Source: a virus. From it: 14,104 bases of DNA. Below, one piece after another: positions 5,809 through 7,057 of the stretch. The notes beneath the pieces are model-generated. The model was not told where the DNA came from. It was given only the letters and a program-made list of their open reading frames with translations, and did no database searches. Where the stretch lies: UHGV virus genome UHGV-0325397, one strand, 5' to 3'. Both the position numbers and the translations under genes were made by a program. How positions within the stretch are numbered: the stretch's first letter is position 1; each line of letters starts with the position of its first letter.

Positions 5809-5849
5809 TCCCGCATTTCGGCGGGACAATCCCATCAATGTTAAAGAGC
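5809..5849 (-). promoter_or_regulatory. nutL-like site: boxA (GCTCTTTAACA) plus boxB hairpin on the leftward transcript
   Basis: Minus-strand boxA at 5839-5849 matches the CGCTCTT(T)A consensus; boxB stem TCCCGC/GCGGGA with loop CGAAAT at 5809-5826; boxA and boxB are both identical to the nutR copy at 7015-7057. Confidence 0.5.
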
Positions 5850-5895
5850 CTGCCAATCTGTTCCGTTTGGCTTCCAGCGTCCTGCTGATGGCTAG

Positions 5896-5957
5896 ATAAT
5901 CACAAATTGTGGTCGTACTGTCAACACGAAATGTGATTGTTTTTATCACAACCCGTG
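5896..5957 (-). promoter_or_regulatory. pL promoter with tripartite OL operator (three CAC-N5-GTG palindromes)
   Basis: Minus-strand -35 TTGACA (5919-5924) and -10 GATTAT (5896-5901) with 17 bp spacer; palindromes CACAAATTGTG 5901-5911, CACGAAATGTG 5925-5935, CACAACCCGTG 5947-5957. Confidence 0.45.
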
Positions 5958-5995
5958 TTTACATTGATTTTAAAGGTAATTTAATTTTCTTTGGG

Positions 5996-6031
5996 CAACA
6001 AAAAACCCGCCGAAGCGGGTTTGATGTTTTT
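5996..6031 (-). terminator. Intrinsic terminator downstream of the repressor gene; hairpin is flanked by T-rich tracts on both strands
   Basis: Hairpin CCCGC-cgaa-GCGGG at 6006-6019; minus strand reads CCCGCTTCGGCGGG then TTTTTTGTTG; 15-40 nt past the cI stop. Confidence 0.5.
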
Positions 6032-6045
6032 AAGTGGCGGGTATA

Positions 6046-6687
6046 TCAGGAGAATTTCATCATCATCTGCACTGCTACGCCGATTATCTTGCAGTTGCCG
6101 TCGATTGGGATCAACGGATAGGCAGGGTTAAGCCCTTTCAGGTATTTGTTACCGCCATCAATGATTAGCTTCTTGAACGTGGCTTCATTAGCATCTGTCA
6201 GCTTCGCAACTACCAGGCTTCCATTAACGGCTTCCTTTCCAGTGTCGAACAGAACCAGCATACCCTCAGGAACGCTAAGGCCGGTAGGAGCTGTCATTGA
6301 GTCGCCCTGAACCCTGAGCCAGAAGGCGTCACCGACAACGTGACAATCTGATTCATACCACTCATCCACTGCCTGAGGGTTGTACGGCTCTACGGCCTCA
6401 CTCCATGCACCTGCGCTAACCCAGCTAATCAACGGAAACTTTTCCCCTGGCTTGTATTGTCCCTGATAGTTGTCGCCAAAAAGCAGTTCTGCCGGAGCGA
6501 CACCCAAAGCTTTAGCTATTACCTCTGCGTCATCAACACTAACGCTTCTGGTTCCTGATTCATAGTTGCCGATCCGAGATTGTGAAGCCCAGCCGCAAAG
6601 CTCCGCAAGAGCCTTCTGTGTAAGCCCTTTATCTTCCCGTAATCGCTTGATACGCGCGGCGATAGTTTCTGTTCTGTTCATGCGCAT
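6046..6687 (-). CDS. cI: CI-type prophage repressor (N-terminal XRE helix-turn-helix, C-terminal S24/LexA-like autopeptidase domain)
   Basis: 213 aa; N-terminal region IKRLREDKGLTQKALAEL...NYESG typical of XRE HTH; C-terminal GDSM (catalytic Ser) and a downstream Lys in VVAKL typical of LexA/CI self-cleavage; divergent from cro; no obvious SD upstream, so possibly leaderless. Confidence 0.88.
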   Translation of the reverse strand: MRMNRTETIAARIKRLREDKGLTQKALAELCGWASQSRIGNYESGTRSVSVDDAEVIAKALGVAPAELLFGDNYQGQYKPGEKFPLISWVSAGAWSEAVEPYNPQAVDEWYESDCHVVGDAFWLRVQGDSMTAPTGLSVPEGMLVLFDTGKEAVNGSLVVAKLTDANEATFKKLIIDGGNKYLKGLNPAYPLIPIDGNCKIIGVAVQMMMKFS

Positions 6688-6694
6688 TTTATAT

Positions 6695-6765
6695 CACATT
6701 CCGTGGTTTAAGGCTTTACACGATTTGTGTTGACTATCAATCACAATGTGTGTTTAATAAAGACT
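6695..6765. promoter_or_regulatory. Tripartite OR operator with pR (rightward) and the divergent repressor promoter
   Basis: Palindromes CACATTCCGTG 6695-6705, CACGATTTGTG 6719-6729, CACAATGTGTG 6742-6752 (spacing 24 and 23 bp); pR -35 TTGACT 6730-6735, 17 bp spacer, -10 TTTAAT 6753-6758; cro SD AAGGA at 6782-6786. Confidence 0.5.
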
Positions 6766-6791
6766 GAGTGAACTAGCTCTTAAGGAAACCT

Positions 6792-7007
6792 ATGAACAAC
6801 ATTGCCAACGAACGGAAAAAGCTTGGCATCACTCAATCTGCGTTAGCAGGCGCGTGTGGCTGGAACCAGTCCCGCTTAGCTAACTACGAGTCAGGTATCC
6901 GGACTCCAGATTTAGAGTCGTGCCGTAGCCTGGTAAAGGCGCTGAATAAATTGGGGAGCAAGACAACGCTAGATGGCTTGTTCCCGCCGCGTAAGAACGC
7001 CGCATAA
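6792..7007 (+). CDS. cro: Cro-like XRE-family helix-turn-helix regulator
   Basis: 71 aa; LGITQSALAGACGWNQSRLANYESGIR shares the HTH pattern with the repressor N-terminus; first gene of the rightward operon. Confidence 0.75.
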   Translation: MNNIANERKKLGITQSALAGACGWNQSRLANYESGIRTPDLESCRSLVKALNKLGSKTTLDGLFPPRKNAA

Positions 7008-7014
7008 GCAAATT

Positions 7015-7057
7015 GCTCTTTAACAGTCATGGTCCTCATTCCCGCCGAAATGCGGGA
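7015..7057 (+). promoter_or_regulatory. nutR-like site: boxA (GCTCTTTAACA) plus boxB hairpin
   Basis: boxA 7015-7025 starts 8 nt after the cro stop; boxB stem TCCCGC (7040-7045), loop CGAAAT, GCGGGA (7052-7057); identical in sequence to nutL. Confidence 0.55.

What the first reader, a model, noticed from the sequence alone, without database searches (positions are those of the whole stretch)
5809..7057. nutL and nutR share identical boxA and a boxB unlike lambda, P22 or phage 21
Both nut sites have GCTCTTTAACA as boxA and a boxB hairpin with stem TCCCGC/GCGGGA and loop CGAAAT. That boxB differs from the lambda, P22 and phage 21 boxB sequences as I remember them, implying an N protein of different RNA specificity. 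Pairing it with the candidate N-like ARM gives a testable RNA-protein pair. Separately, a third boxA-like element (GCTCTTTAC, minus strand) sits inside a long inverted repeat at 5463-5496, downstream of the N-like gene.
Basis: seen in the sequence. Interest (0 to 1): 0.45.

Follow-up and report, generated by a model that had tools for sequence, protein, structure and literature searches.

The report
Known HK620-type phage nut sites
These are the two ordinary, already-annotated RNA landing sites (nutL and nutR) for the anti-termination protein N of HK620-type lambda-like phages, and in this copy the N gene itself is cut short by a stop codon.

Summary
BoxA GCTCTTTAACA and boxB TCCCGC-CGAAAT-GCGGGA occur exactly twice. 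One pair follows PL (5839-5849 and 5809-5826, minus strand). The other lies between cro and cII (7015-7025 and 7040-7057, plus strand).

They are the N-utilisation sites of the HK620-type N protein. The same sequences are annotated as nutL and nutR in the HK620 GenBank record, and the nutL/leader segment is in 522 of 5,426 complete E. coli genomes.

Comparison supports a matched ARM-boxB pair. The boxB follows the N-terminal arginine-rich motif (D[NT]A[RK]NRRR.[RK]R). It does not follow the immunity region or the C-terminal half of N. Stem pairs change on both sides, and loop variants stay GNRA (GAAA, GCAA, GGAA).

Three corrections:
- The boxB is not unrelated to known ones. It is closest to the P22 nutR boxB (14 of 18 bases, one loop base fewer).
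- The "N-like gene" of 52 aa is a 90-aa N gene interrupted by a private ochre codon (TCA to TAA, codon 53).
- The "third boxA" lies inside that N reading frame and is present in only 8 of 80 relatives, so it is incidental.

Verdict: real, functional in kind, already known, low interest.

The parts
5896..5924 (-). PL promoter (-35 TTGACA, 17-nt spacer, -10 GATTAT) within the OL operator region
   Evidence: Consensus scan, 10 of 12 matches with a TG before the -10 hexamer. It aligns with the position of the annotated pL/OL of HK620.
5839..5849 (-). nutL boxA GCTCTTTAACA
   Evidence: Exact match. Identical in HK620, ECP1 and HK630. One variant in 78 IMG/VR relatives.
5809..5826 (-). nutL boxB hairpin: stem UCCCGC/GCGGGA, loop CGAAAU
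   Evidence: Exact match. Fold -10.5 kcal/mol, z -2.95. Exact in 77 of 80 loci that carry this N type. Lies inside the nutL annotated in HK620.
5716..5797 (-). Long N-leader hairpin between boxB and the N start codon
   Evidence: RNAfold of 5690-5860(-): a stem of about 31 bp kept in the centroid structure, z -2.56. It sits in the same position as the lambda N-leader hairpin; that comparison is from my own knowledge and was not tested.
5429..5701 (-). N antiterminator gene, 90 codons in relatives, interrupted here by an ochre codon (TAA at 5543-5545, codon 53). The ARM is residues 11-21 (DNARNRRRARR).
   Evidence: Alignment with HK620, ECP1 and HK630 shows TCA changed to TAA. The full-length reading frame matches Pfam PF25694 N_peptide at E 1e-15 and PHROG 271. 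The 52-aa product alone matches no Pfam family.
5463..5493 (-). Inverted repeat with the boxA-like GCTCTTTAC (5471-5479), lying in the N C-terminal coding region (CLPNVALYAAGY)
   Evidence: Fold -17.6 kcal/mol, but z is only -1.68. The 9-mer is boxA-like in 8 of 80 relatives.
6003..6022 (.). Bidirectional terminator hairpin downstream of cI (tIMM position)
   Evidence: Terminator scan finds it on both strands. HK620 annotates tIMM at the equivalent place.
6046..6687 (-). cI-type repressor (HTH plus S24 peptidase), mEp213 immunity type
   Evidence: Pfam HTH_3 and Peptidase_S24. 98.6% identical to the mEp213 region.
6792..7007 (+). cro-type regulator
   Evidence: Pfam HTH_3. Annotated as Cro in mEp213.
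7015..7025 (+). nutR boxA GCTCTTTAACA, 7 nt after the cro stop codon
   Evidence: Exact match. Invariant behind at least 4 different cro 3' ends.
7040..7057 (+). nutR boxB hairpin (core UCCCGC/GCGGGA, extended to 8 bp by AU/AU), loop CGAAAU
   Evidence: Exact match. Fold -12.5 kcal/mol, z -3.65. Exact in 73 of 80 loci. Inside the nutR annotated in HK620.
7065..7082 (+). Hairpin GCGCAU/AUGCGC in the nutR-to-cII spacer, which is the candidate tR1 region (7058-7115)
   Evidence: Fold of 7058-7116, z -2.24. HK620 annotates tR1 immediately after nutR. Function is inferred.
7116..7394 (+). cII activator (GTG start)
   Evidence: Pfam Phage_CII at E 1e-42.
4525..4546 (-). Intrinsic terminator in the PL operon downstream of N (tL-type target of antitermination)
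   Evidence: 8-bp GC-rich stem followed by T8.
10063..10087 (+). Intrinsic terminator in the PR operon (tR2-type target of antitermination)
   Evidence: 10-bp stem followed by a T run, z -4.51.

Best explanation
The two elements are the nutL and nutR sites of a lambdoid (pro)phage that uses the HK620-type N antiterminator.

How it works in phages with an intact N (inferred from the lambda, P22 and phi21 paradigm):
- Transcripts from PL and PR carry boxA, which is identical to the P22/phi21-type boxA GCUCUUUAACA and serves as the landing site for NusB/NusE.
- 12-14 nt further on they carry boxB, a 6-8 bp stem capped by a GNRA tetraloop (GAAA) flanked by a C.U pair.
- The N-terminal arginine-rich motif of N (DNARNRRRARR) binds boxB.
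- N stays tethered to RNA polymerase with the Nus factors and lets it read through tR1, the tL terminator at 4525-4546 and the tR2-type terminator at 10063-10087.

What is shown here: the anatomy of the sites, the homology of N, the co-variation of ARM and boxB, and the covariation within the stem.

What is inferred: binding and read-through.

In this window the cis sites are intact, but N is truncated after residue 52 by an ochre codon. It therefore lacks the conserved C-terminal module. By analogy with the RNA-polymerase-binding C-terminus of other N proteins, this copy is probably defective for processive antitermination. The exceptions would be an ochre-suppressor host or a sequencing error at that base.
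For: Anatomy:
- Exact, oriented boxA-boxB pairs sit about 40 nt after PL and 7 nt after the cro stop.
- The hairpins fold as stated.

Identity with annotated sites:
- HK620 nutL and nutR are annotated on identical sequence.

N family:
- The full-length frame matches Pfam N_peptide at E 1e-15 and PHROG 271 'anti-termination protein N-like'.

BoxB follows the ARM, not neighbouring DNA:
- HK620, ECP1 and the window (ARM plus phi21-like C-terminus) and N7 and 611R6 (same ARM plus lambda-like C-terminus) all have this boxB at both nut sites.
- VT1-Sakai and HK629 have the same N from about residue 33 onward but the phi21 ARM, and they have phi21 boxBs.
- mEp213 has the same cI and cro as the window (98.6%) but a lambda-type N, and it has lambda boxBs at nutL and nutR. 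Homology with the window breaks exactly around the nutR/tR1 cassette.

Surveys:
- In a search starting from the N protein, 121 of 124 ARM-bearing instances have such a nutL and 111 of 124 such a nutR. The counts include some contigs fetched twice, and part of the shortfall is truncated contigs.
- In a search starting from the boxB, 18 of 18 informative loci encode the ARM, against 0 of 97 chance pattern hits.

RNA-level conservation:
- Among 15 distinct boxB variants, 88% of cells pair, against 37-61% when the partners are slid.
- 4 of 8 pairs change on both sides.
- 9 U-G cells would be C.A mismatches on the other strand.
- Loop variants are CGAAAU, CGCAAU and AGGAAU, all with a GNRA core.
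- In nutR the spacer varies while boxA and boxB do not.

Terminators lie downstream in both operons.

Truncation:
- TCA to TAA at codon 53.
- The allele is absent from IMG/VR, the GTDB representative genomes and 5,426 complete E. coli genomes.
- An H-19B N lacking its C-terminal domain antiterminates only at the nut-proximal tR1 and not at distal terminators (PMC3526286).
Against: - No binding or read-through experiment exists for this ARM-boxB pair in the searchable literature.
- Co-occurrence of nutL with N could reflect linkage alone, since they are about 110 nt apart. Only the nutR co-occurrence across immunity types is independent of linkage.
- Part of the boxB variant set was collected with a filter that required 2-4 base pairs next to the loop, and some variants came from a loop-anchored pattern search. 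This inflates pairing for the inner pairs.
- The GNRA reading rests on three loop variants, two of them rare (2 instances and 1 instance).
- Rfam has no model for these sites.
- The functional consequence of the ochre codon is inferred from other N proteins, not tested.
Confidence: 0.9

Rival explanations
1. The sites are nut sites, but the HK620-type ARM does not have a distinct specificity. It cross-reacts with P22 (and perhaps lambda) boxB, so the pair is a drifted P22-type pair and not an orthogonal class.
For: - The boxB matches the P22 nutR boxB at 14 of 18 positions with one loop base missing: CCGCCGA-AAUGCGG against CCGCCGACAACGCGG.
- The N termini are homologous: MTVVITY..NARNRRRARR against MTVITY..NAKTRRHERRR, 37% identity overall at E 5e-14.
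- L172 carries the ARM DTAKNRRRERR, which is closer to P22 and lambda, yet it uses the same boxB.
- From my own knowledge, unverified here: the lambda N peptide tolerates a GAAA tetraloop boxB.
Against: - No phage in the surveys mixes this ARM with a P22-type boxB, or the reverse.
- Phages that share the C-terminal module but have a P22-like N-terminal region carry GCGCUGACAAAGCGC.
- mEp213 and the window differ at nutR exactly as their N types predict.
Confidence: 0.25
2. The hairpins are not N targets. They are intrinsic terminators, or DNA palindromes bound by a dimeric DNA-binding protein such as an operator.
For: They are perfect inverted repeats close to the operator regions.
Against: - No T run follows either hairpin, and the terminator scan does not call them.
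- The asymmetric loop and the boxA keep one orientation relative to transcription at both sites.
- The U-G wobble variants pair only on the transcribed strand.
- The elements travel with the N ARM and not with the repressor/operator type.
Confidence: 0.02
3. The premature stop in N is a sequencing or assembly error, or is phenotypically suppressed. The window would then come from a fully N-proficient phage.
For: - It is a single-base difference from ECP1, which is 99.7% identical over 2.1 kb.
- The allele is seen nowhere else.
- The flanking genes scanned look intact.
Against: - Private inactivating mutations are common in prophages (general knowledge).
- One of about 49 other translated N genes also has a stop, at codon 84.
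- Nothing in the window allows read quality to be judged.
Confidence: 0.2

Closest known systems
Coliphage HK620 N with its nutL and nutR (GenBank AF335538; Clark et al. 2001, J Mol Biol 311:657, cited from the record and from PMC2629481; the paper itself is not held)
   Same: - BoxA, spacer and boxB are identical at both sites.
- N is 95.6% identical over 90 aa.
- The N leader is the same.
- The placement after PL and after cro is the same.
   Different: - The window has a different immunity region (mEp213-type cI and cro).
- Its N carries an ochre codon at position 53.
Salmonella phage P22 gp24 (N) with the P22 nutR boxB
   Same: - The N-terminus MTV(V)ITY.
- The ARM pattern NA[KR][TN]RR[HR][EA]RR.
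- The C-terminal LP.VALYAAG.RKSKQ.TAR.
- BoxA GCUCUUUA.
- The boxB stem CCGC/GCGG, with a C flanking the loop on the 5' side.
   Different: - The P22 loop is the pentaloop GACAA, closed by C.C in nutR or by U-A in nutL. Here the loop is the tetraloop GAAA closed by C.U.
- The middle of the protein is unrelated.
Phage phi21-type N and boxB (read here in VT1-Sakai and HK629)
   Same: - N residues from about 33 to 90 are nearly identical.
- BoxA is identical.
- The 90-aa length is the same.
- The boxB has a 6-7 bp stem with a six-base loop.
   Different: - The ARM is GTAKSRYKARRAELIAERR.
- The loop is CUAACC.
- A Phytobacter prophage with the intermediate ARM SDNSKNRYRARR has the phi21-like loop CUAACA.
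Phage lambda N with nutL and nutR
   Same: - The same system logic and gene order.
- An ARM with the RRR.RR core.
- A purine-rich, GNRA-like loop.
- Some HK620-type ARMs are fused to the lambda-type C-terminal module (N7, 611R6).
   Different: - Lambda boxA is CGCUCUUA.
- Lambda boxB is GCCCU-GAA(A/G)A-AGGGC, a pentaloop.
- The lambda-type N read here in mEp213 is 110 aa, with an unrelated middle region.

Membership tests
Lambdoid N/nut processive antitermination system | A boxA element (GCUCUU(U)A) 5' of a hairpin on the early transcripts | tested here: met
   GCTCTTTAACA lies 12 nt (nutL) and 14 nt (nutR) upstream of the hairpin, on the transcribed strand in both cases. The first 8 bases match the boxA read in the P22 record, and the full 11-mer matches VT1-Sakai nutL and both HK629 nut sites.
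Lambdoid N/nut processive antitermination system | A boxB stem-loop of about 15-20 nt with a short purine-rich loop, present in two copies | tested here: met
   Two exact 18-nt copies, 0.01 expected by chance. Predicted 6-8 bp stem with a 6-nt loop. Stem covariation seen in relatives.
Lambdoid N/nut processive antitermination system | Positions: nutL between PL and N, and nutR between cro and cII | tested here: met
   PL at 5896-5924, nutL at 5809-5849, N start at 5701. Cro stop at 7007, nutR at 7015-7057, cII start at 7116.
Lambdoid N/nut processive antitermination system | A small basic N protein with an N-terminal arginine-rich motif, homologous to known N proteins | tested here: inconclusive
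   The 90-codon frame matches Pfam PF25694 N_peptide (58.6 bits against a cutoff of 27.9) and PHROG 271. In this window it is interrupted at codon 53, and the 52-aa product alone matches no family. The ARM itself is intact.
Lambdoid N/nut processive antitermination system | BoxB type co-varies with ARM type across phages | tested here: met
   The natural swap table, mEp213 against the window, the survey starting from the protein and the survey starting from the RNA.
Lambdoid N/nut processive antitermination system | Terminators downstream in both early operons that N must override | tested here: met
   Intrinsic terminators at 4525-4546 (-) and 10063-10087 (+). A Rho-dependent tR1 cannot be recognised from sequence.
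Lambdoid N/nut processive antitermination system | N binds boxB RNA and gives Nus-dependent read-through | not testable with these tools
   This needs a gel shift or fluorescence assay and a reporter assay. No such data for this pair were found in the library.
GNRA-fold boxB (lambda/P22 class) | The loop adopts a GNRA tetraloop fold | tested here: inconclusive
   Natural loop variants are GAAA, GCAA and GGAA, flanked by C.U or A-U, which all fit GNRA. GCAA has only 2 instances and GGAA only 1. The 3D fold was not tested.

The most novel reading that the evidence does not exclude
The HK620-type ARM (D[NT]A[RK]NRRR.[RK]R) and its boxB would form a fourth N-peptide/boxB pair, functionally orthogonal to the lambda, P22 and phi21 pairs. 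In it the RNA would present a true GNRA tetraloop closed by a C.U (or A-U) pair, where lambda and P22 use a pentaloop with an extruded base. That would make it a natural intermediate showing how P22-like and phi21-like specificities interconvert, and an extra orthogonal tethering tag. No biochemical study of this pair was found.
Probability: 0.4. Interest if true: 0.35.

Novelty: already known. Interest (0 to 1): 0.15.

Why it matters
As a discovery it matters little. The sites are annotated in HK620, and the nutL/leader segment sits in about a tenth of complete E. coli genomes.

Two things have some value. First, the comparative data assembled here give a clean natural swap experiment: boxB follows the ARM across different immunity regions and different N C-terminal modules. 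They also show the loop as a GNRA core flanked by C.U. Together these make the pair a ready candidate for a fourth orthogonal N-peptide/boxB tethering system, and a case study in how ARM-RNA specificity evolves.

Second, for annotation of this particular element, the N gene is broken. The prophage is probably unable to express its delayed-early genes processively.

Tried and rejected
- Rfam scan of the whole window at E up to 1. Nothing at the nut sites; the only hit is a sub-threshold isrJ-like match at 13859-13929.
- PDB sequence search with N. Only spurious RNF168 matches at E above 0.6, so no structural inference was drawn.
- Literature. No paper in the library deals with the HK620 boxB. 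One search was wasted because 'nutL' and 'nutR' matched nutrition terms. Clark et al. 2001 and Cilley and Williamson 2003 are not held. The boxA strings were not found in PMC3177189.
- Search for the ochre allele in IMG/VR, the GTDB representative genomes and complete E. coli genomes. Not found anywhere.
- Search for the source genome or phage. No record covers 80% or more of the window. It is a mosaic, with ECP1 99.7% identical over 5300-7400 only.
- Genome-collection scan with the N alignment.
- The third boxA-like element as a functional boxA. Rejected: it is coding sequence, it is not conserved, and the hairpin z-score is -1.68.
- The hairpins as terminators or operators. Rejected.
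Full report
**1. What is in the sequence**

The window is the early region of a lambdoid (pro)phage. On the minus strand there is a PL-like promoter (5896-5924). It is followed by boxA GCTCTTTAACA (5839-5849) and, 12 nt later, the hairpin TCCCGC-CGAAAT-GCGGGA (5809-5826). A long leader hairpin follows (5716-5797), then an ATG at 5701.

On the plus strand, a cro-type gene ends at 7007. The same boxA lies at 7015-7025 and the same hairpin at 7040-7057. A cII gene starts at 7116.

- The 18-mer is far beyond chance: 0.01 expected even with three mismatches allowed. 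The boxA 11-mer on its own is not.
- RNAfold gives a 6-bp stem (nutL) or an 8-bp stem (nutR) with the loop CGAAAU, and z-scores of -2.95 and -3.65.

**2. Identity**

- Megablast finds Escherichia phage ECP1 at 99.7% over 5300-7400. The N/nutL segment is found at about 98% in HK620, HK630, HK140, mEpX2, CUS-3 and many Stx phages.
- The HK620 GenBank record (AF335538) annotates 'nutL; putative N-utilization leftward' and 'nutR' on sequences that are base-for-base those of the window. It also annotates a 90-aa 'antitermination protein N'.
- The feature is therefore already annotated.
- It is also common. At least 556 relatives of this N are in IMG/VR. The nutL-leader segment is in 522 of 5,426 complete E. 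coli genomes.

**3. The N gene is broken here**

Codon 53 is TAA where the others have TCA.
- The full frame matches Pfam N_peptide (58.6 bits, cutoff 27.9) and PHROG 271. The 52-aa product alone matches nothing.
- The allele was not found in IMG/VR, in the GTDB representative genomes or in complete E. coli genomes.
- The missing part includes the conserved module CLPNVA[IL]YAAGYRKSKQLTAR.
- By analogy with H-19B N, loss of the C-terminal domain leaves only nut-proximal activity (PMC3526286). This copy is therefore probably defective for processive antitermination. That step is inference.

**4. The 'third boxA'**

GCTCTTTAC and its inverted repeat (5463-5493) encode residues CLPNVALYAAGY of the full-length N.

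- In 57 of 80 relatives the 9-mer is GCCATTTAC. It is boxA-like in only 8 of 80.
- The hairpin is not significantly more stable than shuffled sequence (z -1.68).

I regard it as incidental coding sequence.

**5. Does boxB go with the ARM?**

Four lines of evidence say yes.

(a) A natural swap table:

| Phages | N make-up | boxB at both nut sites |
|---|---|---|
| HK620, ECP1, window | this ARM + phi21-like C-terminus | this boxB |
| N7, 611R6 | this ARM + lambda-like C-terminus | this boxB |
| VT1-Sakai, HK629 | phi21 ARM + the same N from about residue 33 on | phi21 boxBs |

(b) mEp213 has the window's cI and cro (98.6% identical) but a lambda-type N next to PL, and it has lambda boxBs at both nutL and nutR. 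Homology with the window breaks at the end of cro and resumes just before cII, so the nutR/tR1 cassette is what was exchanged.

(c) Surveys.
- Among 80 IMG/VR loci with this N, boxB is exact at nutL in 77 and at nutR in 73.
- This holds behind at least four different cro ends and in four nutL-nutR distance classes.
- The nutR spacer varies while boxA and boxB do not.
- A search starting from a diverged N (about 40-50% identical outside the ARM) found the ARM DNARNRRR[AI]KR invariant. Every such locus where a nutL could be read has a boxB of the same design.
- Loci that share the C-terminal module but have other N-termini carry other hairpins: P22-type, lambda-like and at least two further types.

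(d) A search starting from the RNA. Of the loci with boxA plus a CGAAAU hairpin of at least 6 bp, 18 of 18 informative ones encode the ARM. One of these has DTAKNRRRERR. Among 97 chance hits to the pattern, none does.

**6. RNA structure**

Fifteen distinct boxB variants were compared.

- 88% of cells pair, against 37-61% when the partners are slid.
- Four of eight pairs change on both sides: U-A to C-G, G-C to A-U, and changes in the outer pairs.
- Nine cells are U-G. These would be C.A on the opposite strand, so the structure is strand-specific RNA.
- Loop variants are CGAAAU (the great majority), CGCAAU (2 instances) and AGGAAU (1 instance).

I read the loop as a GNRA tetraloop flanked by C.U or A-U. 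The caveats are that some variants were collected with a loop-anchored or pairing filter, and that the rare loops are few.

**7. Relation to known boxBs**

- It is nonetheless a near relative of the P22 nutR boxB: CCGCCGACAACGCGG against CCGCCGA-AAUGCGG.
- The N-terminus and ARM are homologous to P22 gp24.
- A Phytobacter prophage with the intermediate ARM SDNSKNRYRARR has a phi21-like CUAACA loop.
- These classes therefore look like diverged members of one family. Whether the HK620-type pair is functionally orthogonal is untested.

**8. Mechanism**

By the lambda, P22 and phi21 paradigm, boxA recruits NusB/NusE and boxB recruits N through its ARM. The N-Nus-RNA polymerase complex then reads through the following:

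- tR1 (candidate region 7058-7115);
- the intrinsic terminator at 4525-4546 in the PL operon;
- the intrinsic terminator at 10063-10087 in the PR operon.

Anatomy, homology and co-variation are shown here. Binding and read-through are inferred.

**9. Verdict**

- The feature is already known and of low interest.
- The most useful new points are the broken N gene and the explanation of the third boxA.

Noticed in passing
window 5543-5545 (minus strand, codon 53 of N, gene 5429-5701): A private ochre mutation (TCA to TAA) truncates the 90-aa N antiterminator to 52 aa. The allele was not found in IMG/VR, the GTDB representative genomes or 5,426 complete E. coli genomes.
   Followed up: yes
window 5716-5797 (minus strand): A long hairpin (about 31 bp) in the N leader between boxB and the N start codon. 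It sits where the lambda N-leader hairpin (RNase III site) sits and could regulate N translation. Fold z is -2.56. A homologous segment with sequence differences is present in VT1-Sakai (read by eye, not tested), and covariation was not analysed.
   Followed up: partly
L004 (mEp213, JQ182733) locus 1-700 and 1349-1681: mEp213 carries two N genes: a lambda-type N next to PL and an HK620-type N further downstream. The second is preceded by a chimeric hairpin, TTGCCCTCC|GAAATGCGGGA. This looks like the 5' half of the tL terminator (window 4525-4546) joined to the 3' half of boxB, with no boxA. It appears to be a recombination scar inside boxB.
   Followed up: partly
L224-L259 (IMG/VR loci): The same N C-terminal module (..SPSLRDRHESTSVCLPEIA..) is joined to at least five other N-terminal regions. 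Each has its own boxA-proximal hairpin, for example CCUGUG-AAUA-CACAGG with MNRNQRRMAAFNARK.., and GGGGAUG..CGUCCCC with MKARELRKRLRAEAHR... Some of these ARM-boxB classes may be undescribed.
   Followed up: no
L270 (Phytobacter ursingii ATCC 27989, CABDWT010000001) around 3501-3695: An N with the intermediate ARM SDNSKNRYRARRAAKREQ (N-terminus MTVVITIL, like the HK620 type) pairs with a phi21-like nutR boxB, CUCAUCU-CUAACA-GGAUGAG. This suggests that a few ARM changes, notably Arg to Tyr, go with the switch from a GNRA loop to a CUAAC loop.
   Followed up: partly
window 7429-8073 (+): A 214-aa T5orf172/MUG113 (GIY-YIG-like) protein gene is inserted between cII and the replication genes. It looks like a moron. 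ECP1, mEp213 and HK620 have no gene of this kind next to cII.
   Followed up: no
window 13838-13929 (+): A promoter-like site (TTGACT, 17-nt spacer, TAAATT) is followed by a strong terminator just downstream of a 207-aa ORF (13172-13795) that I take, without testing, to be the Q gene. This would be a PR'/tR' arrangement. The stretch gives a sub-threshold Rfam isrJ match (28 bits, gathering score 37).
   Followed up: no
window 5463-5493 (minus strand): The hairpin GCCUGCC...GGCAGGC inside the N C-terminal coding sequence is kept in nearly all HK620- and phi21-type N genes, but it is not clearly more stable than shuffled sequence. It may simply reflect the codons for LP..AAG.
   Followed up: partly
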